Shown here piece by piece: positions 3,651 to 36,245 of a stretch of DNA of 36,245 nucleotides. The notes under the pieces were generated by a model. That model saw only the letters and a list, made by a program, of their open reading frames with translations. It made no database searches and had not been told where the DNA came from. Numbering within the stretch: the first letter of the stretch is position 1; each line of letters opens with the position of its first letter. The stretch is from the NCBI GenBank assembly GCA_003990765.1, contig RBNJ01000225.1, positions 1 to 36,245 on the forward strand. The letters are read 5' to 3'. The translations under genes were made by a program, and so were the position numbers. This stretch comes from Jimgerdemannia flammicorona (taxonomy: Eukaryota).

Positions 3651-3656
3651 TAGAGG

Positions 3657-7340: not shown

Positions 7341-7420
7341 GTGAGTTCACTGTACTTATATGGGATAGATGGGATGTAATAAAGGGAGAGTCTGAGTGAC
7401 TATAAAAAAAAAAAAAAAAA

Positions 7421-9116: not shown

Positions 9117-9707
9117 TTAACAATAATTGTATGTACACCTTCTGTATACATTTGATAGCGAGATCGAAATCAAAATTATAGAAATGGTCGTCAAAATTGA
9201 CAACACGAGATCAACCTTCGCCCACATCCTTGCACTCGGGTTCGGATTCTTGATATCGCAGATCCCAATATACCACGCTAGAGGGATGCACCAGCCGACC
9301 CAGAAGCAGATGAACGCCATGGAGCCATAACCGGTATTGACGTCTGTGTAGACATTATTGACGACCACAGTAGTGTAGGCTTGCTGCGGGGCTGGGACCG
9401 GCTGGGGCTGGCCGTAGGACTGCTGCGGCTGGCCGTAGGACTGCGGTTGGCCGTAGGACTGCGGCTGGCCGTAGGGCTGCGGGGACGGGACCGGCTGGGG
9501 CTGGCCGTAGGGCTGCGGGGACGGGACCGGCTGGGGCTGGCCGTAGTAGGCTGGTACGTTTTGGCTCTGGTGATAGTTGGGAGGAGGTGGGGAGAAAGCC
9601 TGCTGGCGCTGCTCCGGCATAGTCATCGAGGGAACTGAGCCCGAGGCGCCATAGAGTGGTTCAGGAATGGGAGGGGTATCCGTGAACTGGGGATTTTTCG
9701 TGGCCAT
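9117..9707 (-). CDS. Pro/Gln/Tyr-rich (YGQPQ repeat) protein with C-terminal hydrophobic membrane segments, ~196 aa
   Basis: Likely start MATKNPQF at 9707 within ORF 9117-9878; PPPPNY motif; six YGQPQ units; two hydrophobic stretches (FICFWVGWCIPLAWYIG; LVLSILTTISIILISISL); CpG retained. Confidence 0.8.
   Translation of the reverse strand: MATKNPQFTDTPPIPEPLYGASGSVPSMTMPEQRQQAFSPPPPNYHQSQNVPAYYGQPQPVPSPQPYGQPQPVPSPQPYGQPQSYGQPQSYGQPQQSYGQPQPVPAPQQAYTTVVVNNVYTDVNTGYGSMAFICFWVGWCIPLAWYIGICDIKNPNPSARMWAKVDLVLSILTTISIILISISLSNVYRRCTYNYC
9382..9546 (-). repeat. Coding tandem repeats (36-, 18- and 21-bp units encoding YGQPQ variants)
   Basis: Repeated GGCTGGCCGTAG units visible on the + strand. 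Confidence 0.85.
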
Positions 9708-11379
9708 GGTGGTTGAGAACAAAAATGAGAGAGAGAAGTTGTCAATGCTTGGCCTCCGTCTCGGGACACTATAAACACCAATAATTATAATAATAATAAT
9801 CAGGTTCCTCAACGCTGATTGGTTTCGTATGCTGGCCGCGCCACAGCAAAATGTTACGCAAATTAAGGGGGTGAACACGCGGACAACCGGTTAACACCAA
9901 TTGGGAATGACTCCACGCATTACTAGATTCACTGGAAATGACACTTTGCCATAGGCCTTTGGACCACAGATATGTAAGAGGCAGTCCATGCAAGCTCATC
10001 TGGTACTCACATGAATCTCACCAGCCTACAGTATCTTACTGATCCACATGTATTAATGGCAGTACAATTTCGGTAATCAGACAGCTACGGATATTGTGCT
10101 CTGTCAGATATTATAATCTTAACTATAAATAATATCTTATAAATTATTATATTAATTAAAATTCTTTCGAACATAATAAATAAGTATATAATTATTATCT
10201 ATTATCTATAAATATAAGAATCTGTTTAATTCAGAGAACTGTAGTGCTATAAAATCTTCTTATTAAGCTATAGATATTACTTAATATTATACTGATAACT
10301 TATTAATATTAAAGTATAATTTAAACTTAATTTTTTAAAATTTAATAATTTGATTAAAATATCTAAATTTAATAAATTTTAGCTTATGGAATTTGTCTTA
10401 TATTAGTAATAAAAAATATTAAATTTAGTTATATTTTTATTAGATAAAATTTTAAATTTAATTAAATTGAATTAAACTTTAATTTATATTATTATCAGAA
10501 CTTAGAATTTATTATAACTATATAGTTTTTTATATATAAATAATAATACTTTAGTAATATTGTAGTTATTGTAATATAGCAGATATATAATCTAGAAAGT
10601 ATAACAGATTTCTATATTTCTTCTTAACTCTTTAAAGTTATAGATAATATCTGTCTGATCTCATTATCAGACTATTAGAGTGAGGCTCAAATACTTTTGA
10701 TCTGAGATTTATTTACTCTAGATACTGGGATTATTTATATATATAAGTTTGCTAGCTATATAGTAGTTAAGACTTCTTTTCTTATAAGTTTTTTCTCACA
10801 ATTGTGATATCTATATCTCTATATAATCTATATATCTGTATATTTCTTATAATTGTACAAATTGTATAACTGTAAGATTGGATAACTACTAACTATAATA
10901 CTATACTATATTGAGAATTAGATTTAGATACTGTAATTAAATACTATCTCCTGATTATTTCTAATTTAGATCATATTTATATTATAACTTCCTTCTAAAT
11001 AGATGATCTTGTCCTCAAGACATCTTATTCAAACTCAAAAATATATAATTTGAATACTTTGATAGTAATATATTTATTCCTCCTACATATATAGATATTT
11101 GATAGAATTACTTTACTAATTATCAAGTTAAGTATCTAAGTTATATAATCTCAGCTTAAAGAACCTATACTGATCTCTATAAAGTAGAGAAAGATAAGAA
11201 CTATTCTGAATCAACTATATATATCAAAAAAGACTTTATCTTTTCTCATATTGGTCTCTTACTACTGATAGTTTATCTCTGAGATTTTTTAATAAAATAG
11301 TGCTACTTTGTGAAGTTTTAAGAAGGATCAACCATTCTATTAAAAGAAAAAATAGTAATAGACCTTTGATTTACTCAAA

Positions 11380-14300
11380 AAGATACTCACATTTCTTAAG
11401 TATATCCTGGACTTATGTTCTGAGATTGGGCCAATATTGGTATATTGTTTGTAATATTTCTTCTATGTTTGCTTATTCTTAGTGGACTTTCTGGTATTCT
11501 TTTCAGATAAGATCTTCTTGTACCTTGATGGTCTGAGGAGCTTCCTTTAGAGTATAGTTCCTTGAGACATCCTTCTTCTAGTTCATTAGAGCTGGTGGAA
11601 AAGTATATCAACATTGTTGTGAGCTTTCCCTACTTTGTAGATGATGGTGATTTTGTAATCCTGAAGGATAAGAATCCAGCAGGCTAGGATTCTGGTAGGT
11701 TTTTTGTAGTTGAATAGCCATTTGAGAGCCACATGGTCTGTGATCAGAGTGAATTTTTTTCCAATGAAGTAATGCTTGAATAGAGTGACCATCCATATGA
11801 CTGTAAGGCATTCCAGTTTGGTGCTGCCATAGTTCATCTGCTGCTGATTGGTAGCTCGGCTTGTATAAGCTATTATATAGTATTATTGGTCAGGTTCTTC
11901 TTGGGCTAGAACTGCTCCTAGGCTATCTTTGAAAGCATCTGTATATAAGATGAATGGCTTCTGTAGATTGGAGTGCACAAGGATTAGTACTGTAGTTATG
12001 TGGTTCTTGAGTTCTTTGAAGACTTTCTCTTGTGATTCTGTCTATTTGTAAGGTACTTCTTTCTTGAGAAGGGTTTAGATTGGAGTAGTGATTTGGGTGA
12101 AATTCTTGATAAATCTTCTATAGTAGAATACTAGTATCAGGAATAATAGTGTTTCCTTCAGAGTCTTGGGTACTAGCTAATTGTTGATTTTCTCAGTTTT
12201 TTTTGAGTCTGTATAGATTCCTTTTTTTGAAACTATGAATTTAAGAAATTCAAGTTTCTGTTTCCCAAAGTAGTATTTCTTTGTATTGAGTTTCAGATGG
12301 TTCTTGCAGGTGAGCTTGAAGAATTTCTCTAGGTGGTGTAGGTGTTCTTCAAAATTTGCTGAATAGATGTTAAAATTATCTATATATATAATTAGGTAGT
12401 AATAGATCAAGGGAGTATAGACTGAATTCATTATTCTTTGAAAGAGGTATATTACAAAGTCCAAAGGGCATTTAGAGATATTCAAACAGTTTTCCTAGAG
12501 CAAAGAAGGCTGTCTTTTGAATGTCTTTTAGGTTTATGGGAATCTCATGAAATTCTACAAAAAGGTCCATACTGCTGAAATATCTGGTATCTTGTAACTG
12601 ATCCAAAAGGTCATTGATTCTGAGCAAAGGATAGGCATTCTTTTCAGTAACTAAATTGAGTTTCTGTAATCTATACAGAGTCTCCATCCTCCTTTCTTTG
12701 GTACAATAAGTATAGGACTAGCTCAGGGGCTGGTAGAGGATCAGATGACTCCATTGTCTAGAAGTTCTTAAATGTACTCCTTTTTGAATGTTTTTAGATA
12801 ATGGGGTATTCTATAGGGTTTCTGTTGGATGGGTATTATATTTCCTGTATTTATGCTATAGTGATATAGCAGGTTACCATAATTGGTAATGAAGATATCT
12901 TGATATTTGTTGAGAAGTTCTACTAGTTGTTACCATTATTGGGGGTGTCAATTCTTCTCCAATGTCAGTGGAAGACTTCACTGTCTCTTGGGTCACAGAG
13001 GGGTCTTTTCTTTCTTCTGAGACCTTTTGTCATTTCCTGATAAGTTTAGTTCATAAACTTCTCTATGAGTTTAATTGAGAAAAGGCACCAGGTGTCCTAT
13101 GATAGTTCCTTTTGACAAGATGATGGTCTCCCAACTTTGGTTGGTTGCTTGGGAGTATACTAGGTTCATCTTGTTAGAGAAGATATATCCTTCTATATCT
13201 AGGTATGGAATATCTATATTGGGTTCAAAGAAGAGATTTCTTGGATTGAGTGGTGTAAAGATTTTGAAGGTAGTTTGTTCTCTAGACTCTAAGATGAGGT
13301 TTTTGTACAGTTTGACTGGCTGGTGGTATACTTACTGGAGAACATTCCTTTTGAGGTGGTTGACTTGAAGAAGATGTACTTCTTTCTTATCTAAACTTTC
13401 AAATCCTTTGGCTTGTCTTATTCCTTTAGTCAGTTTGGAGACTTCTTGTAATTGTGAGGTCTTGATCTTCATAAAGACTGCTTGGACAATCTTCTGTTCT
13501 CTAATAATTCAGTACTATTCAGCACTACTATTGTATAGGATGACCTTAATTTTACCTATATATCCTGGGTCAATAATTCCTCCTTCTATGGTTATCTTTT
13601 ATCTGGCAAGTCCAGACCTTGAGGTCAATTATATGTAGATTCCTTGAGGTGGCTGTATGGCTAGTCTTATTCTGATTATGAATATTTTTTCAGGTTTGAT
13701 GAATTCATCCTCCAGACTGTGAAGATCATATCCTATATCTTCTGAGTGAGCTTTGGTCAGAGGTTTGGCCTTGAGATATAGCAGAGTATACTGAGTAATA
13801 TTTTTACTGAGTTCAGACTATCCTTGGGCTGAAGCTCTACTAGCAGAGAGCTTTCAGGCTCTGAGATTGAGGTGTAGCCATCTGGCTCCAGTAGAGGGAT
13901 CTCATAGATAGTTTATTCCTCTTCTTCCTATAGGGTCTAGGGCTTCTATGAAGTTGGTGGCATCTTTTATCCATCCTTAGCAGGTTGTATATCTGATAAG
14001 AGTTAGAATGTCTTCTTCTAAATTATAGATCTTAAGGGTCCTTCTTTCTGGCTTCTTGGTCTGGCTTTTTCAGATCTGGCCTCTATTATCTTCTCTCTTC
14101 AAAGTGTAGATTACAACATCATGACTGAGGTGAATCTTCTGATGTCTACAGTCTCAGTAGTCTGGGTGTCTTCTATGGTTACAATATCCCATTACTTAGA
14201 AATAATATTTCTGGTTATTGATTTCTTATTATCTTGGGAATCAGTATCCATCTTGATCATAAGTTGGGGGAAGAGTAGACAAGAGGTACACTTCTGTTTG

Positions 14301-20324: not shown

Positions 20325-21830
20325 TCACATCCTCACCAATATCCCCTCATCTATATCCCATTCCCTCCCTTTACACTCCTCCTCCTCGAAGGCGACCCCC
20401 TTCTTCACCCACGGTTTCCCCTTCCATACCCATCCCTCCAACGGCTTCCTCTCCACGAACCCCTTCTCGCGTAACAACTTCACCACACGCTGATACCTTT
20501 TGAAATCCCCACGCTCAATCCTGACACACTCGAGTTGCGGGCAATCCTCCAGTATGGCCACCACGGCCGTTTGCCTCACGCCCCAACACTCACCCAGCAC
20601 GAGCTCCCTGAGCTCGGGCCACGCGAGAGGTGCGATGTTGTCGCGCGTGTGGTGCTTCTCAAGGTCGCAAGAGCAGTCGACGAATGAGAGGTCGAGGGTA
20701 CGGAGGCGGGGCATCGGAGTGGTAAGAAGGTGGGCGATGAGGCGATCGCTGTTATCCGGGACCCGCTCAATCTTTGGGATAGTGAGGGCAGTCAGGGTGG
20801 ACGCGCAGGCGGTGACGAGCCGCGGCAAGTCAAGATCTGGGTCATGGCAAACGTAGTCCTCGAGGTCGAGGACGGCGAGATTGCGTGGTGGGTGGTACGA
20901 GAGGCGGCGGACGGTCCGAGCAAGGAAGGGCTTCGGTCGGGTGAGGGCGCCGGAGAGGTTGTGCACGGAGAGAGTGTGGAGGTCGGACCAACGGGCGATG
21001 GTGTCGGCGAAGTGGTCCGGGGGCAGGCTGGCGTAGACGGAATGGAGACGAAGGGTGTGGATGCGGGTACAGCGGCGGAGGGCCAGGGAGAGATCGACGG
21101 TGAGGCGACTATTGTGGAGGTGGAGCTGCTGGAGTTGCGGGTGAAGGCGGTCGATGAGGAGGAGGAGTGAGTGTGGCGGGCGTGACAGCTCGGCGCAGAA
21201 GAGATCGTTTGGATTCAGCTTTGGGCTGACGAGGTTGCTGAGCTTGTGGACGAGGGTGGGGATCGTGGGGCGCGGTTTGGGGGTGGGGACGCGGAAGATC
21301 TGGTGCTGGGCTCCACCTTTCGTAGATAGCTTGGAAACACGTAGACTCGTTATGGTTTGTGGATTCTGTAGCAGTGGCATGAGAAACTTGTCCAGAAGCC
21401 GCAGACGGCCATACTCCACCGTGTGGTTGAAGTCCAGAGACAGGGTCTGGATGTTAGGTTGCAATGCACGTACGATTTGGCTGATGGGATTCGCGCGAGT
21501 CGGGTCCAGGATAACTGGATGGTAGCAGGTGACGTCCCCGTACATGATCTCTACCCAACGTGTCATGGCTCCGAGTGCTAGGCCGTGTCGCTGGGAATCG
21601 GTCAGAATGTCGGCGAGACGATTGAGCTCATAGTCCCTATATATGTTGGTTCGCAGCCATCTCACGGTCTGCAGATTCTGCTGTAGATGGGACACTGCGC
21701 TGTTGTACCATGAGCGGCAGACCAGACAACAGGAGAGGAGGTCGAGCGTGTAGAAGTAATTGTACTTGTAGGGGGTGACGTAGATGAAGATGACATTAAG
21801 GATCTCTGGAGGGAGGGTAGGAGCTGGCAT
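20325..21830 (-). CDS. F-box / leucine-rich-repeat (RNI-like) protein, 501 aa, intronless
   Basis: N-terminal LPPEILNVIF...LLSCCLVCRSW F-box; LRR units LQQLHL, LHTLSV, LAVLDL, LRTLDLS, LRELVLGEC, CPQLECVRI. Confidence 0.9.
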   Translation of the reverse strand: MPAPTLPPEILNVIFIYVTPYKYNYFYTLDLLSCCLVCRSWYNSAVSHLQQNLQTVRWLRTNIYRDYELNRLADILTDSQRHGLALGAMTRWVEIMYGDVTCYHPVILDPTRANPISQIVRALQPNIQTLSLDFNHTVEYGRLRLLDKFLMPLLQNPQTITSLRVSKLSTKGGAQHQIFRVPTPKPRPTIPTLVHKLSNLVSPKLNPNDLFCAELSRPPHSLLLLIDRLHPQLQQLHLHNSRLTVDLSLALRRCTRIHTLRLHSVYASLPPDHFADTIARWSDLHTLSVHNLSGALTRPKPFLARTVRRLSYHPPRNLAVLDLEDYVCHDPDLDLPRLVTACASTLTALTIPKIERVPDNSDRLIAHLLTTPMPRLRTLDLSFVDCSCDLEKHHTRDNIAPLAWPELRELVLGECWGVRQTAVVAILEDCPQLECVRIERGDFKRYQRVVKLLREKGFVERKPLEGWVWKGKPWVKKGVAFEEEECKGREWDIDEGILVRM

Positions 21831-22163
21831 GGTTGACCATGTAATAAATGGAAGAACCAGTCAGACAGTCACCACCCACCACCGCCACCAAAACCATCCG
21901 AGGAAAAAAGCAGACCAACTTTCTTGTCGCCCATATAATATAGCCATTACACCTGACGTTCCGTTGTCAGAAGGAAACCCAGCCATGACCAAAAAACAAA
22001 ATTACTTGTAGCTTAGTCCAATTTATAAGTGTAACAATCTACCACTAGCAGGAGTGTTACCTTTGTGTCTCTCTTTCGCGATGACATAATATTCCATTTT
22101 GAAAGCGATGGCCCTCCCGCAAACATCAATGGTGCTTAATTAATTCGAGGGACTCTTTCATCA

Positions 22164-22638: not shown

Positions 22639-23027
22639 GATGAAGATGTATTGATGGATGGAGCGAGATTCTGATCCGACCGTCATGTGATTCCGTGACG
22701 AGTCAACCCCTTTTGCCCAAGGACCACACGTTTATGCTTTCCATTTAGGTTTGAATGTTTGAAACCAGAAGCAGCAAAACATTGCTCCCTTGGAGCACAT
22801 ACTAGAATAATAGCCGTCTAATGAACATGAAGCTAGCCCTCAACCTTCAACAATACATGTCGGATTCCGGCACGGCAACCTATACCCGGAAAACGTCGTC
22901 TCCATAGAGAGCGTTTCCGATTGATCCATGAAAGAGCATTCGAAATTTGTCGCCGGGAATAGGGCATGTATATATTATGATGGTATCAAAATTGTACTTG
23001 CGCATGATACGCCAGATATCAATAATG

Positions 23028-24059
23028 TTATACTCTCGTCTCAAAACGGATATCATGCAACCCTTTCGCCACTGCCATGACCAACGCCTCCCCATCGCAC
23101 GCCAAGGTCAAATACGTCAACAGCTCCACAACCTGGTTCGCGGCCCCTAAACAATCCCCCACCACACCCCCAATCATCGACACGATATATCTTCCCGCCA
23201 CGATTGTCGCCACAACCGTCACCGCTCCCATTGTCATTAACTTCCACATGTCCCCGTTCAATGCCACCCACGCGAACCCAACAGTGGACACCGTCCCGAA
23301 CAGCAGCCTCGCGATGGGCACATGCATCTTGAACTCCTTGCCCTCGGCGCTTACGCCCTCGAGGTACTCGTGCCGCCACAATAGGTACAAGCACGACCAC
23401 CGGCCGAGGACATGAGCGAGGACGAGCCAGCGTAGCGTGAAGCCCGGAAGCACGACGAGCGACGCCACGGCAGAGAGCTTGGCTAGCACGACGAGCGTCA
23501 GACCCACACAGCCGTAGGTGCCGATCCGCGAATCGCGCATAATCCGCATGATCTGATCACGGCCCCAGCCACCGCCGAAGCCATCGAACGTGTCGGCGAG
23601 GCCATCCTCGTGGAAGGCACCCGTTAGCCAGACGGTCGAGAGGGTGTAGAGGACAGATGCAATCGAAGGGTTCCAGGCGGCCAAAGAGAAATAAAAGGAG
23701 ATCGCGCCGAAGTAGCCAACAAAGATACCTAGAAAGGTTTATGGTTTGGTGGAAAGGTTGAATGAGAGCAAAGTTAGCGTGTTGTGTTTTTAAGATGTTT
23801 GTCTCAGTTCTATCATAAGCGTGAATAAAGACCACGTGCCGATGGCTGGGTAATACGCCGTGCTCAGGCTCATCCAGTACATGTCGTGGTTGACCCATGG
23901 TGGAACGGGCAGCCGCGTGAAGAACATGATCCCCGTCAGGAGCGCCTGAATTTCTTGCCCAACGAAGGACTGCTGCGAGGGCTTCTGTTGCTGCGCAGGC
24001 GCGTCGGCGTCGGCCGATTGGGCTCTGGATTTTTTCGACGAGTTCTTCTTGGAGACCAT
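23028..24059 (-). CDS. cobS: Cobalamin 5'-phosphate synthase / adenosylcobinamide-GDP ribazoletransferase (CobS family), 306 aa; exons 24059-23840 and 23728-23028
   Basis: CobS motifs FFTRLP, YPAIGIFVG (formed by splicing), TGAFHEDGLADTFDG, IMRDSRIGTYG, GGVVGDCLGA..QVVE; multi-pass hydrophobic; 111-nt GC-AG intron with GCTAAC branch. Confidence 0.92.
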
Positions 24060-24438
24060 GTTTTTGCGGGACGCGGTTTCACAAAAATGGGGTTTTCCCA
24101 GAACGCGTCAGAGGAATGGTGGCGGCCAATGGGGTGAGGTTTCTATGTTCCATAACGAGCAATAACGAGGAGCCCTTGTTTTCGACGACATAGCCCATAT
24201 ACCTGGTGAAGAATCAAGAACAGGTGAAGGGGCTAATGAAAATTTCTGGCACTGGCGAATGATGTCATGAAGCATTTATGCAGATATTTATACCAAGTTC
24301 GGTGGTGCCAATGTAAAAATCGAGGAGGTATATATATATACATTGCCAAGTCCAAAGTACACGTACACTGGAGGTGCCACACACACGAGTTCAACGGATC
24401 TGATTGCCCAGTAACAAAAAATAAAATAATCAAAAGTG

Positions 24439-24511
24439 TGGAGAACCTGGGCATCGATCCCAGTGCCTATCGCATGCTAAGCGATCGCTCTACCATTTGA
24501 GCTAGATCCCC
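24439..24511 (-). tRNA. tRNA-Ala (anticodon AGC)
   Basis: GGGGATCTAGCTCAAATGGTAGAGCGATCGCTTAGCATGCGATAGGCACTGGGATCGATGCCCAGGTTCTCCA folds as a cloverleaf; G3:U70 Ala determinant; eukaryotic A34 and GATCGATG T-loop; no encoded CCA; T-runs downstream. Confidence 0.96.
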
Positions 24512-24755
24512 AATTGTGCTGTTTGTATAGGTAAATTTGATATTAAAATATATTAGATAGCATCTAGGTAGATATTGTATGCCAATCCTTGACGCTGTTC
24601 ATCATGGTAATATGAGGCAAACTACATGTGTTGTAGGTGATATGTTATATAATGTTCGGTGGAAAGGCGACTCTGGACAGGATGTGTGACGTGCGGCGAG
24701 TTAGATCAAGAAATTTTTTCAAGCCTTCCGTCCGTCCTGTATCTTGATCCAAATC

Positions 24756-27700
24756 ATGTCCTCTTCACAAGGACCCGCATACACCTCCTTCAATAGGAAG
24801 GGTTACAGCTCCATAAACTCAAACCAGAGTGAGGACGACGTATCCATCCACTCCCAGTCCTCCTCCCACCGCCCCATCTCCCGCACGAACCGCACCCGCC
24901 TCGTCCTCCTTGGCGTCGCCGCCGCCTTCCTCCTAACCACCGCCTACCTCTCGTCTTCTTCCTCCCTCAAGAACCCCGAGTTCACTACGTTCGCCGACGA
25001 TTTCGCCACCAAGGAAGCGCCGTCGCCACCCCCCGTCAACTTCCTCGCGCCTGGCATCTCCGACCAGGCCTTCCGGGCCGGCTTGGCCAAGTGCCACGCC
25101 ATCGAGCAGCGCCGGAATTTCACGCGTCCCAAGGGCGAGCGTACCTGGAACCCGCGCGCCGTTCCCGGCACTAAGCCCTTGCTGATCAAGGACGGCGTTC
25201 TCTGGATGGGCGACGGGTACCTCGACGGGTACGACGTCCTGCTCGAGAACGGCCTGATTGCGAGGATCGACAAGAACATTGAGGCGCCAGAAGACGCCAG
25301 AGTCATCGAAGCGAATGGCCGCGTCGTCACGCCGGGTATTATTGACATGCATAGTCACATGGGCGTTGAAAGCTTGCCCGCCACGGACGGCTTGTCCGAT
25401 ACCAATGAGATGTCTGATCCGTTGACTCCGCAGGCACGTTCTTCGAATTCATGCACCCTATCCCCTCTCCTCCAAATCGCAACTCTACATCTTCCATTCC
25501 ATCCCAAAATCTAACTTCAATACCTCCTTTCACCCACCGCCCCTACTAGGTGCGTGCCATCGAAGCCTTCAACCCTTCGGACCCCGGCATCCGTATCGTC
25601 TCGTCCGGCGGCATCACCACTTCGCTCATCCTCCCTGGCTCGGGCAATGTGATGGGCGGCGAGGCCCTGGCCGTCAAGCTTCGACCCGTCTCGACTCTCA
25701 GCGTCGAAGACATGCAGGTCGCCGCCGGCGTTACTGATGAGAAGAGGTGGCGCTACATGAAGATGGCGTGCGGCGAGAACCCGAAGAACGTTTACGGGAA
25801 CAGGGACGCCGTGCCCGTGTCACGTGAGTCATAGGTTCCCTTTTTGTGGTTGATATAGCGAACTTCACCCCACATCTGATCCACGCTCCCCCAACATAGG
25901 TATGGGCGAAGCCTACCTTGTCCGGAAGCGCCTTCAATCCGCACAGCAGCTCCTCCACGCACAGGATGACTGGTGCAACGCGGCGGAGCAGATTGCTGAG
26001 CAGCCGCGATCGACGTACCGGCTTTCGGAACGGTTCCCTGAGGACCTGGAGAATGAGTCACTGGTGGCACTGCTGCGGGGGGACGTCAAGCTCAACATAC
26101 ACTGTTACGAGCCGCACGACATTGAGGCCATGATCCGCCACTCCATCGAGTTTGAATTTGAAATCACCGCGTTCCATCACGCGCTGCAGGCGTGGAAAAT
26201 CCCCGAGGTTATCAAGAGGGCCAGGAATAATATCACGGTGGCGACGTTTGCGGGTGGGTGATTTGGATGGGACAGGGGATTCAGGGTCAGAAGTGGGATG
26301 GGTAGGATGTGGTGGAGATAGATTGGTCAACGCGCGCATGTTAATAACAAGATTATGCATTCGCCATTTTTTTCTTGATTCGCTATTATGAAGATATGTG
26401 GGGCTATAAGGTATACTATCAATGGTTTGGTCGTTGAGTGAACGAACATTGCGTATCATCTACACCACCCGGCAATATGTTAAACCCAATTTCCTTTTCA
26501 CGATCTTCATGGCTTCCGCCGAGCTAGGTCGAAGCTTACCCCGCCAACGTCAACACCCCCAAGATCCTCACCGACGCTGGTATCCCCGTTGCCTTTAAGA
26601 GCGATCACCCGGTCTTGAACTCAGTGAGTTATGCTATTTCTCCCATACCACCATCTTCCGTTCTCTTCCCTCTCCACCACAATTAACCTAACCCGCCCCC
26701 GGGAATCAGCAAGACCTCGTCTGGGAAGCCGCCAAGGCCTACCACTACGGTCTTCCCGAGCACCTTGCCCTCTCAGCCGTGACCTCGGTCCCCGCGCGCG
26801 CTATGGGTCTGGACCACCGCATCGGCCACCTCCGGCTAGGCTACGACGCCGACGTGGTCATCTGGGAGAACCATCCGCTGACGCTGGGCGCGCGACCCGC
26901 GCAGGTGGTAGTCGACGGCGTCGAGCTCGACTTCGAAGAAGACCTGCTTACGAAGCAGGCGCGCAAGGTTCTTGGCGAGGAGGATGAGAACGAGAAAGCA
27001 AACAAGGAAGAAATAAAGCCCATGGCGAAGTTGGAGAAACACGACCACGAGATGACCGCGTCCGTCAACGGTGCACCCGTCGACGCGAGGCAGGCGTGCT
27101 CGGGCGAGACGGACACATTCGTGATTCGCAACATCGGAAAGCTGTTCTTGTCACAGGATAGGGTGTTCTCGGCGGCCGACGTTAAGGGGAAGGAGATCGT
27201 CGTCATTGTGTACCACGGCAAGCTGCGCTGCGCAGGGACCGACTGCAGGGAGAAGGGCGAGTGGCCCGAGGGTCCCGTGTTCGACTTACAGCATGGTTAC
27301 GTGTTGCCGGTGGGTTTCTCTAATCCGGGTGTGGAGTTTCTGTCATCCTCGTTTCTTTCTGTTAAGAAACATGTCGTCGAGCTCGTGCGGCGCCACTATA
27401 AGATCTTAATTGACTTACTCCGCCAATCCAGGGTCTCATCTCCACCGGCGCTCGCATCGGCCTTATCGAAATCGAATCCGAGTCCTCCGCGATTGACGGC
27501 TTTGTGTCCAACAATCCGAATGACCCTGACCTGGAAAAGAGTGTCGTCCGCGCCGTGGACGGACTTAAGTTCGGCGGGTTGCACCTAGAGAAGCCGTACA
27601 AGGCCGGTACGTCTTGCTCGGCGTGGATTGGGATTTTGGTGGTTCGGGGCGATAGGTTATGTTTGGGCGGGTATTTATAAGCTTGCTGATGCACGTGGAC

Positions 27701-28978
27701 ATGTTGTGCTTCTCTTCAACCGATCAGGCGTTCTGACTTCTTTGACCCAGCCCATCATCGGATGGGGAGGATTCATCTCAGGAGTGTCGTCGGCGTTCAG
27801 GACTGGTGCTTTGAACACAGGTGAGTTTGAAGATGATGTGTAGTCGGAGTGTGGAGGTGGAGGTGGAGAAGGGTGGGGATCGGTATTATAGCTTGCATTT
27901 CAATGATTTCAGTGTGGTTTGTTGAAGCCATTGGTATGGGAATGTCTCGATCTGGACTCACCTTTGTATTTTGGTTATTGCAGTGCTTGATGACGACATC
28001 ATCGTCAAGGACGAGGCTGCCCTGCATGTGCTTCTTGGTGCCAGTGGTGAGTGAATGAATCTAGTTTTTTAATGTCCATGTGCGATTTCCAACAGCCTTC
28101 GTTTCCGATATGAAGTATCCCTACCGGATTGGCCGAACAATTCGCTTGTATCCTCCTGTCACCATCCCAACAACAGCGAGCCTTACCGTCTCTCAACAAG
28201 TGGCTCTCCTTCGCCGCCTCCTCCTGACCCATATCAACACTACTGCCGCGGCTGACCCCAACAGCTCGATCTTCACGCGCGCGGCGCATGGCCATCTTCC
28301 CGTGGTGGTGTACACGGAGAACAAGGACGAGATTGCCTCGGTGGTGACGATCAAGCGAGCGACCCGCGCCGCCGGTGGCTCCCCGCGCTTTATCATCATG
28401 GGCGCTACTGAGTCCTGGCTCGTCGCTGACCACCTAGCCCGCGAGGACATTGCCGTCATTCTCCGGCCCGCCAGGTGCACCCCGCGCACCTGGTTCTCGC
28501 AACATTGTCTCGTCGGGCCACCTATCTCCCCTGTCACGGCGCTCGACGTGCTTGTCAGGAAGGGCGTGCTGGTCGGGCTGGCGTCACTGGATGTTGATGA
28601 TGGATACGTCAGGAACCTGGTGTGGGATGCCGGTAAGTTGTTTCTTCATATGGGTTTTCGTCCGTGCGTTTCTTGGCGGTTGACGGTTGCCGTGACTTAG
28701 GGGGTTCGAGCCATCACGCTAAACTTCGCTTCTTGATCCAATTGGTCACAGGGTGGAACCTCGCCACGAACCCCACTCTCACTGAGACCGACGCGGTAGG
28801 CCTCGTAAGCTGGAATATCGCCAAAATGTTTGGCCTCCGCGACACCGGCAGGATCGAGGAAGGCAGCCTTGCCGAGCTCGTGGCCTACAACGGGAACCCG
28901 TTCCAGATGGGCACAAAGGTCCAACTGGTCGTTGGCGGCGGGAGAAAGGGGATCACGTGTTTCCCACAGCAGGTCTAG
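24756..28978 (+). CDS. Membrane-anchored tandem amidohydrolase-superfamily protein, ~1010 aa, 11 exons (24756-25433, 25550-25823, 25900-26253, 26394-26410, 26528-26623, 26710-27309, 27432-27606, 27728-27820, 27984-28046, 28177-28632, 28752-28978)
   Basis: PGIIDMHSHMG, KMACGENPK, SRMG, IHCY, FHHA, DMWGYKVEAY, KSDHP, G.L..GYDADVVIW; second domain PGLIS...GRIEEGSLAELVAYNGNP; N-terminal hydrophobic anchor. Exon phases sum to 3033 nt. The exon-10 acceptor could instead be 28096. Confidence 0.88.
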
Positions 28979-29853: not shown

Positions 29854-30789
29854 CTAATGCTGCAACATCTCGACCTTCGACTCTTCCCTCGAGTTCATGA
29901 ACGACTTGAAATACTCGTACACGGACCACGAGATAGCGGTGGCAGGCATGTTTGACAAGACTCTAGGCCTGAGGCCTCGAAACATGCCGGCGGCGCCGTG
30001 TCGCTCGTAGATGATCTTGCTCGCCTCCCACAGGCCGGAGCACTGCCGTATCCGTGCATCGAGCGAGACCCCGCGCGTCTGTAGCAACGTCTTGATCACG
30101 TCCAGCGGGGTCGTGGCGGCCGCCGCGATGGCTCCGGCCGCGCCGCCGGCCAGCACGTGCGTTTTTGGGTCGTAGTCCCCTCGCGGGTTCAACACTTTGC
30201 GGAAATATTCGTACGACGCAAACTGGATTGACTGAAACGGGATTGTCATCGTCAGCGTCGTCGGGTAAGATATGTAGAAGGCGATCAGGCCCTCCGCCGC
30301 GTAGACACGGCGCGCGCACTCAAAGACGTTGCGATAGACGGAGCCGTGGATTTGCATGCGCTGTTTGATAACATCAAATGGGTTCATGAGTGCGTCGGCT
30401 GCGATGGTCGCGCACGCGCCTGCGGCCCCCGTCGCCAGCAGGTGATGCCCCTCTGTGGCTACGTTCCCACCAAACGCCTCCTTGCATTGCTCGTACGTGG
30501 CGAAGTAGAGCGCGTGCGCGGGGCCGGCGCCGATCACCACCGAGTTGATACCGCGCCACAGCGTTCGCGCGCCTTCCGTAGTCGTGATCCGCGAGAACGC
30601 GTTCCCGATCCCCGTGTACATGGCCTGTCGGGTCGGGCTCAGCACTTGCATGCGTGTCTTGATGCTATCCACGGGATACATAATACTGTGCTCGGCAATA
30701 CCTGCTAACGCGCCGGCGATGGCGTTGGCGAGCATGCTCGAGTTCGCTCCCAGGGACTCGTAGTCGTGGTCTTCTACTGCGTCCATCAT
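29854..30789 (-). CDS. Mitochondrial carrier, mitoferrin (MRS3/MRS4-type iron transporter), intronless
   Basis: Three Px(D/E)xxK signatures (PVDSIKTRMQ, PFDVIKQRMQ, PLDVIKTLLQ); DYESL, EHSIMYP and GAGPAHALYF typical of mitoferrins. Likely start MMDAVED; an upstream in-frame ATG lies at 30849. Confidence 0.93.
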   Translation of the reverse strand: MMDAVEDHDYESLGANSSMLANAIAGALAGIAEHSIMYPVDSIKTRMQVLSPTRQAMYTGIGNAFSRITTTEGARTLWRGINSVVIGAGPAHALYFATYEQCKEAFGGNVATEGHHLLATGAAGACATIAADALMNPFDVIKQRMQIHGSVYRNVFECARRVYAAEGLIAFYISYPTTLTMTIPFQSIQFASYEYFRKVLNPRGDYDPKTHVLAGGAAGAIAAAATTPLDVIKTLLQTRGVSLDARIRQCSGLWEASKIIYERHGAAGMFRGLRPRVLSNMPATAISWSVYEYFKSFMNSREESKVEMLQH

Positions 30790-30884
30790 GTTTGTGGTGA
30801 TCAAGAGGGGGAGTTCTGGGCGGAGCGTGGGGCGTGTGTCAAGTGACATGTTTATATCGAAGAAGATGAATGTTTAGAAAAGTG

Positions 30885-32639: not shown

Positions 32640-33702
32640 GGTGTGAGAAGAAGTATATCTTGAGGCGATTGATATATACTGGTGTTCTCAGGGTTCGTCC
32701 ATCCATACTTCTTAAATAGATGCTGGTTCCTCTGATGTTGTGTACAAGATAAGGTCCTTCCCATTTTGGTTCCAGTTTGGTGGCAAAGTTTGTCTCAATC
32801 ATGCTTCTCCAAACTAGGACTTGATCTCCAATCTTGATCTCCTGATCCTTCTGTTTTTGGTTATAGTACTTCTTTTGTCTTTCCTGGGCTTTGATAATCT
32901 GTCCTTGGGCTTGATTTCATAACTGTTCTGCCTTCTTGAGGAGGTCTCTGAGATTCTCATGGTCAGCAGTTCTGGTTTTCTTGGCAAACATCATTTCGAA
33001 TGGCTTTTGTTTGGTGGATGTGACAGGGGTATTCCGAATTTCCCATAGAATCTCAGGTAAGCAGAGGTCCCAATTAATAGGGTTGACTTGGGCAAGTCCT
33101 TTCTTGATGGTCTGGTTCATTCTTTCTATCATGCCATTGGTCTGGGGGTGGTATGATGTGGTCCTTTTGAGGTGGATCTTGTGAATTTGGATATAACTTG
33201 TGATTATGTTATTGATGAATTCTGTGCCTCAGTCAGAGATGAGTTCTTCTGGAGGTCCATATCTGAGTGTGAGTCCATGGAGGAGGCCTACAATGGTTAA
33301 GGCATCTGCGATTTCCATTGGGAAAGCCTCGGGCCACTTGGTCAGATGTTCTACAAATACAAGGATGTATTTGTTTCTTCTTGGTGTAACTGGTAGAGGT
33401 CCAATTACATCTACTCCCCATCTTTGAAAGAGGTGAGTGGGTGGGGGAATCGGTTGCAGAAGGGCTTGATAGTTCTTCTTTCCTTAGTACTTCTGGCAGA
33501 TGTCACATTTCTGGATGATGTCCTGAACTTGAGTTCTGAGGTGGGGCCAATGTTGATATTGTTTTCAAATCCTGTCTTCTATGCTTGTCTGTCCTTGGTG
33601 GGCTTTCTGATGTTCTTTTTGGATAAGATCTTCTTGTGCTTTGATAGTCTGAGGAGCTTCCTTTAGGGTGTGGTTCCTCGGGACACCCTTCTTCTGATTT
33701 AT
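32623..33702 (-). pseudogene. Integrase (360 codons in one frame, several nonsense transitions)
   Basis: H..AHQG...CDICQ, WGVDVIGPLP, ISD*GTEF, YHPQTNGMIERMN, KWEGPY. Confidence 0.9.
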
Positions 33703-35160
33703 TGGGGCTGGCAGGAAAGTACATCAACATTGTTGTGGGCTTTCTCTGCTTTGTGAATGATGGTAATTTTGTAATCCTGAAGGATAAGGATCCAGTGGGC
33801 TAGAATTCCAGCAGGTTCCTTATGGTTGAATAGTCATTTGAGGGCTATATGGTCTGTGATCAGGGTGAACCTTTTTCTGATAAGATAATGCTTGAACAGA
33901 GTGACTGCCTATATGACTGCAAGGCATTCCAGTTTGGTGCTACCATAGTTCATCTGCTGCTGATTGGTAGCTCTGCTTGCATAAGCTATCACGTGGTGCT
34001 GTTGGTCAGGTCCTTCTTGGGCTAGAACTGCTCCTAGGCCATCTTTGGAAGCATCTGTATACAAGATGAATGGCTTCTGTAGATTGGGGTGTACAAGAAT
34101 TGGTGCTGTAGTCATGCAGTTCTTGAGTTCTCTGAAGGCTTTTTCCTGTAATTCTGTCCATTTGAATGTCATTCCTTTCTTGAGAAGGATTCGGATTGGG
34201 GTAGCGATTTAGGCAAAATCCTTGATGAACCTTCTGTAGTAGGATACTAACATCAGGAATGATAGTGTTTCTTTTGAAGTCTTGGGTACTGGCCAATTGT
34301 TGATCTTTTCGGTTTTCTTTGGATCTGCATGAGTTCCTTCTTTTGAGACCACAAATCCAAGGAATTTGAGTTTCTGTGCATTTCTTTACATTTAGTTTCA
34401 AGTAATTCTTGTGGGTGAGCTTGAAGAATTCCTCTAGGTGGTGCAGGTGTTCTTCGAAATTTGCTGAATAGATGTTGGAATCATCCATGTATACAATCAG
34501 ACAGTGGTGGATCAAGGGGGCATAGACTGAATTCATCATCCTCTGGAAGGTGGGGGGTGCATTGCAGAGTCCAAAGGGCATTTGGAGGTATTCAAACAGT
34601 TTTTCTAAAGCAAGGAAGGCTGTCTTTTGAATGTCCTTGGGGTCCATGGGGATCTCATGGAATCCCATGAAGAGGTCCATACTGCTGAAGTATCTGGCAT
34701 CTTGTAACTGGTCCAAAAGATCATCGATTCTGGGCAAAGGATAAGCATCCTTTTCAGTGACTGAGTTGAGTTTTCTATAATCCATGCAGAGTCTCCATCC
34801 TCCTTTCTTTGGTACAATAAGTATAGGGCTGGCCCAGGGGCTAGTAGAGGGTCGGATGACTCCATTGTCTAAGAGTTCTTGGATGTGCTCCTTTTCGAAT
34901 ATTTTCAAGTGATGGGGTATTCTATAGGGTTTCTGCCAGATGGGTGTTGCACTTCCTGTATTTATGCTGTGGTGATATGATGGATTGTATGGCAGATTGT
35001 CATAATCGGTGGTGAAGATATCTTGATATTTGTTGAGAAGTTGTGCTAGTTGTTGCTGTTGTTGAGGTGTTAATTCTTCTCCAATGTTAGTGGAAGGCTT
35101 CACTGTCTCCTGGATTACAGAGGGGCCTTTCCTTTCTTCTGGGACCTTTTGCCATTTCCC
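33699..35160 (-). pseudogene. Reverse transcriptase-RNase H (11-nt deletion at ~34378 relative to copy 1, plus stops)
   Basis: ORFs 34006-35103 and 33909-34172; ends ...HNNVDVLS.QPQ*. Confidence 0.93.
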
Positions 35161-35510
35161 GATAGGTTTAGTTCATAAACTTCCCTATGAGTTCAGTTGA
35201 GAAAAGGCACCAGATGTCCTATGATGGTTCCTTTTGGCAGGATGATGGTCTCCCAACTTTGGTTGGTTGCTCAGGAGTATACTGGGTTCATCTTGTCAGG
35301 GAATGTGTATCCCTCTATGTCCAGGTGTGGGATATCTTCCTTAGGTTCAAAGAAAAGGTTTCTGGGGTCAGGTGGTGCAAAGATTTCGAAAGTAGTTTGT
35401 TCTCTGGGCTCCAAGATGAGATTCTTGTGCAGTCTGACTGATTGCCGGTATACTTGCTGGGGAGCATTCCTCTTGAGGTAGTTGACTTGAAGGAGATGAA
35501 CTTCTTTCCT

Positions 35511-35924
35511 GTCTGAACTTCCAAATCCCTTAGCTTGTCTTGTTCCTTCGGTTAGTCCAGAGACTTCCTGTAGCTGTGAGGTCTTGACCTTCATGAAGAC
35601 TGCTTGGGCAATCTTCTGTCCTCTAATGATTCGGTGCCATTCTGCACTGCTGTTGTGTAGGATAACCTTGATTTTGCCTGTATATCCAGAGTCAATAGTT
35701 CCTCCTTCTACAGTTATCTCTTGTCTGGCAAGCCCAGACCTTGAGGTCAGTTGAATATAAGCTCCTTGAGGTGGTTGCATGGCTAATCCAGTTCTGACTA
35801 TAAAGGTTTTTCCAGGCTTAATAGATTCATCCTCCAGGCTGTGAAGATCATATCCTACATTCTCTGGGTGGACTTTGGTTGGGGGTTTGGCCTTAGGGTG
35901 CAGCAGGGCATATTGGGCAATGTC
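35511..35924 (-). CDS. dut: Trimeric dUTPase domain within the retrotransposon polyprotein
   Basis: All five motifs: VGYDL, SRSG, GTIDSGYTG, KIAQ, TRQAKGFGSSD. Confidence 0.93.
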
Positions 35925-36245
35925 CTTGCTGAGTTCAGGCTTTCCTAAGGCTGAAGCTCCACTAGTAGAAAGTCTCCAAGCTCTAAGGTTGAGGTGTGGC
36001 CACCTGGCTCCAGTGGAGGGGTCTCAGAGGTAATTGATTCCCCTTCTTCCTGTAGGGTCAAGGGCTTCCATGAAGTTGGTGGCATCTTCTGCCCATCCTT
36101 GGCAGGTTACATGTCTGATGAGAGCTAGGATGTCTTCTCCTAGATCATAGATCTTGAGAATTCTTTTTCCAGGCTTCTTGGTCTGGCTTTTTCGAATCTG
36201 ACTTTTTCGGATCTGGCTTTGGTTATCTCCTTTCTTCAGGGTGTG

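What the first reader, a model, noticed from the sequence alone, without database searches (positions are those of the whole stretch)
23028..24059. A spliced, nuclear cobalamin synthase (cobS) in an apparently fungal genome
Seen: a full CobS motif set in a two-exon gene flanked by a eukaryotic tRNA, an F-box gene and a mitoferrin, so it is not simple bacterial contamination. Established: CobS attaches the alpha-ribazole lower ligand to adenosylcobinamide-GDP; eukaryotes do not build the corrin ring; some algae remodel cobamides and carry CobS/CobT homologues; non-Dikarya fungi retain B12-dependent enzymes. Inference: this fungus may finish or remodel cobamides scavenged from soil or endohyphal bacteria. 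I cannot check whether fungal CobS has already been described.
Basis: partly seen in the sequence, partly recalled or inferred. Interest (0 to 1): 0.85.

Follow-up and report, generated by a model that had tools for sequence, protein, structure and literature searches.

The report
Spliced fungal cobalamin synthase (CobS) gene
A soil or root fungus carries an intact, expressed and correctly spliced gene for the enzyme that attaches the lower base to vitamin B12, which suggests that some fungi can finish or rebuild B12-type cofactors that they take up rather than only consume them.

Summary
On the minus strand, 24059..23028 encodes a 306-aa CobS-family protein in two exons (Pfam PF02654, E 4.6e-38 on exon 2 alone). 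The 111-nt intron (23839..23729) is a rare GC-AG type. Contigs from two runs, one a root metatranscriptome, lack exactly these 111 bases, and a third shows the same junction as a 10-nt overhang. Both motifs shown by mutagenesis to be essential in Salmonella CobS are present. GC3 matches the neighbouring fungal genes.

The neighbouring mitoferrin groups with Mucoromycotina, not chytrids (single gene). In trees the protein falls in a fully supported fungal CobS clade. Its other named members are all chytrids or blastoclads. It forms a separate branch with two unnamed environmental sequences. This fits old vertical descent and argues against a recent bacterial transfer.

Cobamide salvage or remodelling is inferred only. 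No genome is held, so CobT, CobU, CobC and the B12-dependent enzymes could not be sought.

Eukaryotic COBS is already known from algae, and zoosporic-fungal homologues are annotated in GenBank. I found no paper discussing fungal CobS. Verdict: a new member of a known kind, of moderate interest.

The parts
23840..24059 (-). CobS exon 1 (ATG at 24059; codons 1-73 and the first base of Gly74). It holds an N-terminal extension of about 34 residues and the start of the conserved core.
   Evidence: Residues 35-72 match NF001277 positions 3-40. RNA-type contigs cover it.
23729..23839 (-). Intron of 111 nt, GC-AG type (donor GCACGT, branch CTAAC, acceptor CTAG), GC 0.387.
   Evidence: Sequence. Contigs of X1 and X4 skip 111 bases here and X2 has a matching 10-nt loose end. 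GC content.
23028..23728 (-). CobS exon 2 (last two bases of Gly74 to the TAA stop at 23030..23028).
   Evidence: Pfam PF02654 E 4.6e-38. NF001277 positions 44-250.
23583..23612 (-). HxDxxxDxxD motif (HEDGLADTFD, residues 113-122), which corresponds to cytoplasmic loop 2 of Salmonella CobS.
   Evidence: Motif found. It is invariant in 15 of 15 fungal-type sequences. D82, D86 and D89 are essential and H80 is important in Salmonella CobS (PMC8092220, passages).
23145..23168 (-). GxxGDxxG motif (GVVGDCLG, residues 261-268), which corresponds to cytoplasmic loop 6.
   Evidence: G, G, D and G are invariant in alignment A1. D229 is essential in Salmonella CobS (PMC8092220).
24060..24242 (-). 5' untranslated region as covered by the X1 contig (183 nt in the window, with three upstream ATGs). 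X1 lacks 12 nt at 24183.
22803..23027 (-). 3' untranslated region as covered by the X1 contig (225 nt). X1 lacks 2 nt at 22969.
24438..24511 (-). Context: tRNA-Ala(AGC), 379 bp upstream of the CobS start codon.
   Evidence: ARAGORN. Rfam RF00005, 51.5 bits. That the AGC anticodon for Ala is the eukaryotic type is recalled knowledge.
20325..21860 (-). Context: F-box-like plus LRR protein ORF.
   Evidence: PF12937 E 4.2e-07 and PF12799 E 5.7e-05.
29854..30873 (-). Context: mitochondrial carrier (mitoferrin/MRS3-4 type). It was used to place the host organism.
   Evidence: PF00153 E 3.2e-72, three repeats. Best hits 72-76% to Glomeromycotina, Mortierellomycotina and Bifiguratus. Single-gene tree.

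Best explanation
This is a functional nuclear gene of a terrestrial, Mucoromycotina-like fungus. It encodes cobamide synthase (CobS, adenosylcobinamide-GDP ribazoletransferase), a polytopic membrane enzyme.

Shown:
- The gene is intact, transcribed and spliced through a GC-AG intron.
- It keeps the catalytic motifs.
- It has the host's codon usage.
- It belongs to a fungus-specific CobS clade that also holds chytrid and blastoclad genes.

Inferred:
- As in bacteria and, by correlation, in remodelling algae, the enzyme joins an activated corrinoid (adenosylcobinamide-GDP, or possibly an intact cobamide by base exchange) to alpha-ribazole phosphate.
- This would let the fungus complete or re-tailor corrinoids taken up from bacteria into cobalamin for its B12-dependent enzymes.
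- The gene most likely descends vertically from an early fungal or eukaryotic ancestor and was lost, or has been overlooked, in most other terrestrial fungi.
For: Family and motifs:
- Pfam CobS E 4.6e-38 on exon 2 alone.
- The two exons are contiguous in the NCBIfam profile.
- HEDGLADTFD and GVVGDCLG are present. They match the HxDxxxDxxD and GxxGDxxG motifs whose Asp residues are essential in Salmonella CobS (PMC8092220, passages). Both are invariant in 15 of 15 fungal-type sequences.
- A Kyte-Doolittle scan gives several hydrophobic segments.

Expression and splicing:
- Spliced contigs occur in X1 and in the root metatranscriptome X4, and X2 has a junction overhang.
- Of 6 variant positions in the CDS, 4 are synonymous and 2 are conservative (K236R, M234V).

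Native gene:
- GC3 is 0.762, against 0.782 for the mitoferrin and 0.729 for the F-box gene. The intron is AT-rich.
- Eukaryotic genes and decayed LTR retroelements lie on both sides.

Phylogeny:
- In the careful tree of 47 rows, the fungal clade of 20 rows including the window has support 100/99. The window+P0003+P0004 branch has 98/94 and lies outside the chytrid clade (100/98) and the blastoclad clade (96/97). The bacterial clade has 100/99 and the other eukaryotes 100/100.
- The same three groups appear.

Functional anchors:
- In the 2 metagenome loci read in full (L011, L016), the bacterial relatives sit in aminotransferase-cobU-cobT-cobS operons, followed by a His_Phos_1 gene in L016. The ORFs scanned in L001 gave DBI_PRT and His_Phos_1 beside the match.
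- CobT-CobS fusion proteins exist in Sphaeroforma arctica and in unnamed eukaryote-type proteins.
- Algal COBT/COBS/COBC correlate with pseudocobalamin remodelling (PMC4850488).
- Endogonales, Glomeromycotina and other non-Dikarya fungi keep B12-dependent pathways (PMC8085122).
Against: - No activity was measured.
- No partner gene (CobT, CobU/CobY, CobC, a ligand-removing enzyme) and no B12-dependent enzyme could be sought in this organism, because no genome is held.
- Exon 2 alone stays below the NCBIfam equivalog cut-offs: TIGR00317 82.3 against 110, and NF001277 161.3 against 273. The full spliced protein could not be scored.
- In Chlamydomonas, no COBS knockout with a remodelling phenotype was obtained. 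The authors consider COBS possibly non-essential for remodelling (bioRxiv 10.64898/2026.08.07.738727, passages).
- The host placement rests on one protein tree with moderate support (SH-aLRT 92 and 83).
- The root of the CobS tree is not established, so whether eukaryotes acquired the gene once or more than once stays open.
Confidence: 0.65

Rival explanations
1. The gene is a real, expressed CobS-family protein, but in fungi it has been put to another use. For example, it could transfer a different phosphoryl-linked head group in a membrane, and so have nothing to do with cobamides.
For: - No partner or B12-dependent gene was shown for this organism.
- Fungal proteins carry an N-terminal extension that the bacterial relatives lack.
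- They fall below the NF001277 equivalog cut-off: P0005 scores 212.6 against 273.
- No COBS knockout phenotype has been obtained in Chlamydomonas.
Against: - Both motifs needed for cobamide synthesis in Salmonella are invariant across the fungal clade.
- The nearest bacterial relatives lie in cobU-cobT-cobS operons.
- Eukaryotic CobT-CobS fusions tie the family to lower-ligand activation.
- Related fungal lineages keep B12-dependent enzymes.
- No alternative substrate is known for this family (recalled knowledge).
Confidence: 0.17
2. The gene is a relic on its way out. It is still transcribed and spliced but no longer needed, because the rest of the pathway has been lost in this lineage.
For: - Among named hits, CobS appears only in zoosporic fungi. 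0 of the 120 listed hits come from Mucoromycota, Zoopagomycota or Dikarya, which points to widespread loss in terrestrial fungi.
- The gene lies in a region rich in retroelements.
Against: - The 306-codon frame is open and all key motifs are intact.
- Two further members of the same branch, at 76% and 64% identity, also keep them.
- Variants among runs are mostly synonymous, 4 of 6.
- Spliced transcripts were recovered in independent runs.
Confidence: 0.1
3. The gene reached this fungus by a recent horizontal transfer from a bacterium, for example an endohyphal or soil bacterium, or from a chytrid.
For: - The family is bacterial in origin, and the nearest non-eukaryotic relatives are about 45-50% identical.
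- The gene's occurrence among fungi is patchy.
Against: - The window sequence lies inside the fungal clade (100/99). It lies outside the chytrid clade (100/98), the blastoclad clade (96/97) and the bacterial clade (100/99).
- It has a spliceosomal intron.
- Its GC3 equals that of the host genes.
Confidence: 0.04
4. Bacterial contamination or an assembly artefact.
For: None beyond the prokaryotic reputation of the family.
Against: - The intron is removed in RNA contigs.
- Fungal genes, a tRNA-Ala(AGC) and LTR retroelements lie on the same contig.
- Codon usage is that of the host.
Confidence: 0.01

Closest known systems
Salmonella enterica CobS (cobamide synthase, adenosylcobinamide-GDP ribazoletransferase)
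   Same: - Same Pfam family.
- Same HxDxxxDxxD and GxxGDxxG motifs, whose Asp residues are essential.
- Hydrophobic, multi-segment protein.
   Different: - The fungal gene is nuclear and interrupted by a GC-AG intron.
- Its product has an N-terminal extension of about 34 residues.
- It is not in an operon. Partners are unknown here, whereas the bacterial relatives sit beside cobU, cobT and cobC.
Algal COBS (Chlamydomonas reinhardtii, Pavlova/Diacronema lutheri), linked to pseudocobalamin remodelling
   Same: - It is a eukaryotic nuclear CobS homologue in an organism that cannot make the corrin ring.
- Presence of COBT/COBS/COBC correlates with remodelling (PMC4850488).
- Algal and fungal proteins lie on the same side of the branch that separates the sampled bacteria (99).
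   Different: - Fungal sequences form their own clade (100/99), apart from the algal and protist clade (100/100).
- Identity is about 42% to the green-algal-type P0101.
- No remodelling phenotype is known for any fungus, and none turned up in my searches.
Annotated CobS proteins of zoosporic fungi (Polychytrium aggregatum, Catenaria anguillulae, Allomyces arbusculus, Paraphysoderma sedebokerense, Cladochytrium replicatum, Blastocladiella emersonii and others)
   Same: - Same fungal clade.
- 39-57% identity to exon 2.
- Same motifs and same kind of N-terminal extension.
   Different: - Those hosts are flagellated chytrids and blastoclads. The window's host groups with Mucoromycotina on its mitoferrin.
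- Its CobS forms a separate branch with two unnamed environmental sequences (98/94).
Sphaeroforma arctica CobT-CobS fusion protein (748 aa)
   Same: It is an opisthokont CobS homologue. The fusion to DBI_PRT (CobT) links eukaryotic CobS to lower-ligand activation.
   Different: - The window protein is not fused.
- Sphaeroforma groups with the algal and protist clade, not with fungi.
Vibrio cholerae CobS, proposed to remodel pseudocobalamin directly
   Same: It offers a way for CobS to act on an intact cobamide without CbiZ or CbiR. Such a route would suit a eukaryote that lacks those enzymes (PMC7733943 and PMC8092220, passages).
   Different: - It is a bacterial enzyme.
- In-vitro support for the activity is said to be lacking.
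- No sequence comparison with it was made here.

Membership tests
CobS / cobalamin-5'-phosphate synthase (Pfam PF02654; EC 2.7.8.26) | Profile match above Pfam's curated gathering score | tested here: met
   Exon 2 alone scores 131.9 bits against a cut-off of 23.2, E 4.6e-38, profile positions 27-207 of 207.
CobS / cobalamin-5'-phosphate synthase (Pfam PF02654; EC 2.7.8.26) | NCBIfam equivalog cut-offs (TIGR00317 110 bits; NF001277 273 bits) | tested here: inconclusive
   - Exon 2 alone scores 82.3 on TIGR00317 and 161.3 on NF001277. Exon 1 alone scores 23 on NF001277.
- The joined protein could not be handed to the tool.
- The full-length fungal homologue P0005 passes TIGR00317 (111.6) but not NF001277 (212.6).
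- The bacterial-type relative P0014 also fails NF001277 (252.1).
CobS / cobalamin-5'-phosphate synthase (Pfam PF02654; EC 2.7.8.26) | Loop-2 motif HxDxxxDxxD with essential aspartates | tested here: met
   HEDGLADTFD at residues 113-122. The motif definition comes from PMC8092220. It is invariant in alignment A1.
CobS / cobalamin-5'-phosphate synthase (Pfam PF02654; EC 2.7.8.26) | Loop-6 motif GxxGDxxG with an essential aspartate | tested here: met
   GVVGDCLG at residues 261-268. Motif definition. Invariant G, G, D and G in A1.
CobS / cobalamin-5'-phosphate synthase (Pfam PF02654; EC 2.7.8.26) | Polytopic integral membrane protein | tested here: met
   A crude Kyte-Doolittle scan (19-residue window, threshold 1.5) finds hydrophobic stretches around residues 72-90, 148-178, 212-230, 234-267 and 276-294. 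No topology predictor or structure was used. No PDB entry matches by sequence.
CobS / cobalamin-5'-phosphate synthase (Pfam PF02654; EC 2.7.8.26) | Catalysis: AdoCbi-GDP + alpha-ribazole 5'-phosphate gives adenosylcobalamin 5'-phosphate + GMP | not testable with these tools
   This needs complementation or an enzyme assay.
Nucleotide-loop-assembly pathway (CobU/CobY, CobT, CobS, CobC) | Partner genes present in the same genome | not testable with these tools
   No genome is held for the window. None of the Pfam matches in the window is a cob gene. Partners are seen only in the bacterial relatives' operons and as CobT fusions in other eukaryotes.
Eukaryotic COBS of the algal remodelling type | Groups with algal COBS to the exclusion of bacteria | tested here: inconclusive
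   Fungi, other eukaryotes and the sampled bacteria form three fully supported clades that meet at one node. Eukaryotes lie on one side of a 99 branch in the FastTree with 51 bacterial or metagenome rows. The root is unknown and the bacterial sample is biased towards close relatives.

The most novel reading that the evidence does not exclude
Fungi have kept an ancestral eukaryotic branch of the cobamide nucleotide-loop pathway. This holds for the zoosporic phyla and for at least one terrestrial, root-associated Mucoromycotina-like lineage. These fungi would actively rebuild corrinoids, turning bacterial cobinamide or pseudocobalamin plus DMB into cobalamin, so fungi would be cobamide remodellers in soil and the rhizosphere. 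The gene may have gone unnoticed in other terrestrial fungi because its GC-AG intron defeats gene prediction.
Probability: 0.4. Interest if true: 0.72.

Novelty: new member of a known kind. Interest (0 to 1): 0.55.

Why it matters
B12 use by early-diverging fungi was recognised only in 2021. That paper leaves open where fungi get the cofactor (PMC8085122, passage), and it does not mention CobS or CobT (0 occurrences).

An expressed CobS in a terrestrial fungus turns this into a testable question: can fungi use incomplete or wrong-base corrinoids, as some algae do? If they can, fungi would join bacteria and algae as players in the environmental B12 cycle, including around plant roots, where plants themselves neither make nor use B12.

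The clean fungal clade also gives a marker for tracing the loss of B12 metabolism along the fungal tree.

Tried and rejected
- **Whole-genome search for partner genes:** impossible, because no genome is held.
- **GT-AG intron models:** the GT dinucleotides near the exon 1 end leave phase 2, while the only acceptor after the branch site needs phase 1. These models were rejected in favour of GC-AG, which RNA contigs then confirmed.
- **Metagenome scan with exon 2 alone:** 229 pattern matches, none confirmed.
- **Metagenome scan with the fungal alignment:** 494 of 600 stretches were confirmed and 80 loci kept, all at 48% identity or less. Of the three loci I examined, L011 and L016 showed a complete bacterial cob operon. 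The ORFs scanned in L001 gave DBI_PRT and His_Phos_1 beside the match. No fungal locus was gained.
- **PDB sequence search:** 0 matches.
- **ESM Atlas with the CobT part of the Sphaeroforma fusion:** bacterial CobT clusters and one diatom-dominated DBI_PRT+CobS cluster. Nothing on fungi.
- **Neighbouring amidohydrolase genes as a possible CbiZ-like ligand-removing enzyme:** rejected. They match Amidohydro_1 and Amidohydro_3. That CbiZ is a different family is recalled knowledge, and I did not scan specifically for CbiZ.
- **Rfam scan of the window:** only the tRNA.
- **Earlier findings of this scan:** nothing relevant.
- **Literature searches:** no listed paper deals with fungal CobS. In some searches the term 'cobs' appears from the titles to have matched mostly other uses of the word. 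Searches were too broad to be conclusive.
- **Parts of the stretch without cover in runs X2, X4 and X6** are not taken as evidence of anything.
- **Full-length scoring:** the spliced protein could not be given to the family, fold or search tools, because a joined sequence may not be typed. Only exon-wise results exist.
- **Supplementary tables** of PMC8085122 and PMC4850488 were not opened. They may list per-species gene presence that bears on this finding.
Full report
**1. What is there**

On the minus strand an ATG at 24059 opens a frame that runs to about 23840. A second frame runs from 23728 to a TAA at 23030..23028.

Joining 24059..23840 to 23728..23028 gives a 921-nt CDS and a 306-aa protein. 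Exon 2 alone matches Pfam CobS (PF02654) at E 4.6e-38, 131.9 bits against a gathering score of 23.2, over profile positions 27-207 of 207.

Against NCBIfam NF001277 (adenosylcobinamide-GDP ribazoletransferase), exon 1 residues 35-72 cover positions 3-40 and exon 2 covers positions 44-250. The two exons therefore abut in the profile, with only the junction codon and two positions between them.

**2. The intron**

No GT near the end of exon 1 leaves the phase that the only acceptor after the CTAAC branch site requires. The frame closes only with donor G|GCACGT and acceptor CTAG|, which makes a 111-nt GC-AG intron at 23839..23729.

Public runs test this directly:
- A 1315-nt contig of run X1 covers 22803..23727 and 23839..24242 and skips 111 bases. 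X1 is labelled RNA by guess.
- A 409-nt contig of X4, a root metatranscriptome, shows the same skip with 149 and 260 nt on its two sides.
- A contig of X2 ends at 23839 with a 10-nt overhang identical to 23718..23727.

The joint can slide by two bases. Of the three placements, only GC..AG has recognised splice ends. GC-AG introns are a minor class handled by the major spliceosome (recalled knowledge).

The X1 contig also outlines a 5' leader of about 183 nt with three upstream ATGs, and a 3' UTR of about 225 nt.

**3. Is it intact and native?**

Both motifs that mutagenesis of Salmonella CobS showed to matter are present. These are HxDxxxDxxD, with D82, D86 and D89 essential, and GxxGDxxG, with D229 essential (PMC8092220, passages). 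In the window protein they are HEDGLADTFD at residues 113-122 and GVVGDCLG at 261-268. Both are invariant in an alignment of 15 fungal-type sequences.

A simple hydropathy scan finds several membrane-length hydrophobic stretches.

Six positions in the CDS differ between the window and the laid contigs. Four are synonymous and two are conservative, K236R and M234V.

GC3 of the CDS is 0.762, against 0.782 for the mitoferrin ORF and 0.729 for the F-box ORF. The intron has GC 0.387.

**4. Surroundings and host**

The gene lies in a gene island that holds:
- an F-box/LRR ORF (20325..21860, minus strand);
- tRNA-Ala(AGC) (24438..24511, minus strand);
- amidohydrolase-family ORFs with two separate C-terminal matches, probably two tandem genes (24705..28978, plus strand);
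- a mitochondrial carrier (29854..30873, minus strand).

Decayed Ty3-type LTR retroelements lie on both sides. None of the Pfam matches in the window is a further cob gene.

The carrier's best named hits are Glomeromycotina, Mortierellomycotina and Bifiguratus at 72-76% identity, while chytrids reach 61-65%. In a 46-row tree it sits with Mucoromycotina (SH-aLRT 92) next to Glomeromycotina (83). It lies outside the Glomeromycotina (98), Mortierellomycotina (99), chytrid (95) and Ascomycota (99) clades. This is one gene with moderate support.

My reading is a terrestrial, non-flagellated, Mucoromycotina-like fungus. The X4 contig places a spliced transcript fragment, with 2 mismatches in 409 nt, in a root metatranscriptome.

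**5. Relatives**

A word-indexed search with exon 2 scored 8000 candidates, of which 7338 had E ≤ 0.001, and listed the best 120.
- The top two are unnamed: P0003 (76%, Logan) and P0004 (64%, JGI).
- 12 of the 120 carry fungal names, and by my recalled taxonomy all are zoosporic. Eight are chytrids: Polychytrium, Quaeritorhiza, two Phlyctochytrium, Dinochytrium, Cladochytrium, Nowakowskiella and Obelidium. Four are blastoclads: Paraphysoderma, Allomyces, Catenaria and Blastocladiella.
- 0 of the 120 are named from Mucoromycota, Zoopagomycota or Dikarya.
- 4 are named bacterial MAG proteins (Gemmatimonadota and Bacteroidota).

An exhaustive profile search of 1.84 billion representatives found 12652 proteins at E ≤ 0.001 and listed the best 150. 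It gives ten fungal-type representatives at 340 bits or more, then drops to 311 bits for a bacterial-type protein. Eight of the ten are named and all are zoosporic fungi, including Blastocladiella emersonii, Podochytrium and Rhizoclosmatium. The other two are P0029 and P0003.

The window's own branch is therefore known only from the window and two unnamed environmental sequences. One caveat applies: these are annotated or called proteins, and a GC-AG intron could cause the gene to be missed in other fungal annotations.

**6. Phylogeny**

Four trees agree: IQ-TREE quick with 72 and 77 rows, FastTree with 99 rows, and IQ-TREE careful with 47 rows.

In the careful tree:
- The fungal sequences, 20 rows including the window, form a clade with support 100/99.
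- The sampled bacterial and metagenome proteins form another clade (100/99).
- All other eukaryotes form a third clade (100/100). These are green algae, haptophytes, a cryptophyte, a dinoflagellate, stramenopiles, Euglena, Hondaea and the ichthyosporean Sphaeroforma.

Inside the fungal clade there are four lineages in a polytomy: Quaeritorhiza, the window branch (98/94), the blastoclads (96/97) and the chytrids (100/98).

With 51 bacterial or metagenome rows, all eukaryotes lie on one side of a branch supported at 99.

Rows left out:
- Searches used subsets chosen for time.
- Aphanomyces was dropped after because of its long branch.
- Ten bacterial rows were thinned.

The trees are unrooted and the bacterial sample is biased to near relatives. 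What they show is that the window gene is not a recent bacterial or chytrid import. Whether eukaryotes acquired the gene once is not settled.

**7. What it most likely does**

The close bacterial relatives are ordinary nucleotide-loop genes. In the 2 metagenome loci read in full (L011, L016) the homologue follows an aminotransferase, cobU and cobT, and in L016 it is followed by a His_Phos_1 (CobC-type) gene. The ORFs scanned in L001 gave DBI_PRT and His_Phos_1 beside the match.

In eukaryotes, CobS is fused to CobT (DBI_PRT) in the Sphaeroforma arctica protein and in several unnamed proteins, in both domain orders.

Evidence from the papers:
- In algae, the presence of COBT, COBS and COBC goes with the ability to turn pseudocobalamin plus DMB into a usable form. 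Those authors noted Sphaeroforma as the best non-algal COBS hit and do not mention fungi (PMC4850488, passages).
- Disruption of COBT by gene editing in Chlamydomonas is reported under the heading that COBT is necessary for remodelling. No COBS mutant with that phenotype was obtained (bioRxiv 10.64898/2026.08.07.738727, passages).
- A direct remodelling role has been proposed for Vibrio cholerae CobS, without in-vitro proof (PMC7733943 and PMC8092220, passages).
- Non-Dikarya fungi, including Endogonales and Glomeromycotina, keep B12-dependent pathways, and the source of their cobalamin is called an open question (PMC8085122, passages).

Taken together, the best reading is that the fungal enzyme attaches alpha-ribazole phosphate to an activated corrinoid during salvage or remodelling of imported corrinoids. 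The chemistry, the substrates, the partners and the cellular site are all inferred.

**8. Known or new**

Eukaryotic COBS is established for algae, and fungal homologues are deposited under CobS-type names.

The paper on fungal B12 use has 0 occurrences of CobS, CobT, ribazole or remodel. Two large fungal comparative papers mention cobalamin only by reference to it. None of the listings from ten searches shows a paper on fungal CobS. Several of these searches were broad or were polluted by the word 'cobs'. Supplements were not opened.

I therefore file the gene as a new member of a known kind. Two points add to what is known. Its host appears to be a terrestrial Mucoromycotina-like fungus rather than a zoosporic one, and its expression and GC-AG splicing are documented.

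**9. Limits**

- No genome was available for the partner search.
- The full-length protein could not be scored against curated cut-offs.
- Exon 2 alone is below the NCBIfam equivalog thresholds. The full-length Polychytrium homologue passes TIGR00317 (111.6 against 110) but not NF001277.
- No solved CobS structure was found by sequence.

Noticed in passing
window 24705-28978 (+): Amidohydrolase-family ORFs (Amidohydro_1 and Amidohydro_3 matches). There are two separate C-terminal matches, so this is probably two tandem multi-exon genes. The first starts with a hydrophobic anchor and an HxH metal motif. They lie beside CobS on the far side of the tRNA. No link to B12 is evident.
   Followed up: partly
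window 32920-36023 (-): LTR-retrotransposon pol region in the order dUTPase, reverse transcriptase, RNase H, integrase (Ty3-type order), with frame breaks. A retroelement that carries a dUTPase domain is uncommon enough to note.
   Followed up: partly
window 5196-5438 (+) and 11589-12494 (-): Further decayed reverse-transcriptase and RNase H fragments. The left 20 kb of the window is AT-rich repeat debris with no intact gene detected.
   Followed up: partly
window 2001-8000 and 10001-11000: Strong positive GC skew (0.36-0.50) over about 6 kb, and a 1-kb block with GC of only 0.199. Unexplained; possibly strand-biased decay of old repeats.
   Followed up: no
window 9400-9546: An 18/36-nt tandem repeat (about 3-4 copies) inside a 257-aa ORF (9117..9890, minus strand) that has no Pfam match.
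   Followed up: no
window 24060-24242 (-): Three upstream ATGs lie in the CobS 5' leader. The X1 transcript contig lacks 12 nt at 24183 relative to the window.
   Followed up: no
proteins P0404, P0350, P0363, P0399, P0402, P0417, P0468: CobT (DBI_PRT) and CobS occur as one polypeptide in both domain orders, in Sphaeroforma arctica and in unnamed metagenome or Logan proteins. Aphanomyces astaci has a short (~80-residue) DBI_PRT match upstream of CobS. An ESM Atlas cluster dominated by diatoms shows the same fusion.
   Followed up: partly
protein P0343 (Blastocladiella emersonii, 1483 aa): CobS occupies only residues 80-333, and no other Pfam domain is found at E <= 1e-4. This may be a merged gene model or a long uncharacterised extension.
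   Followed up: no
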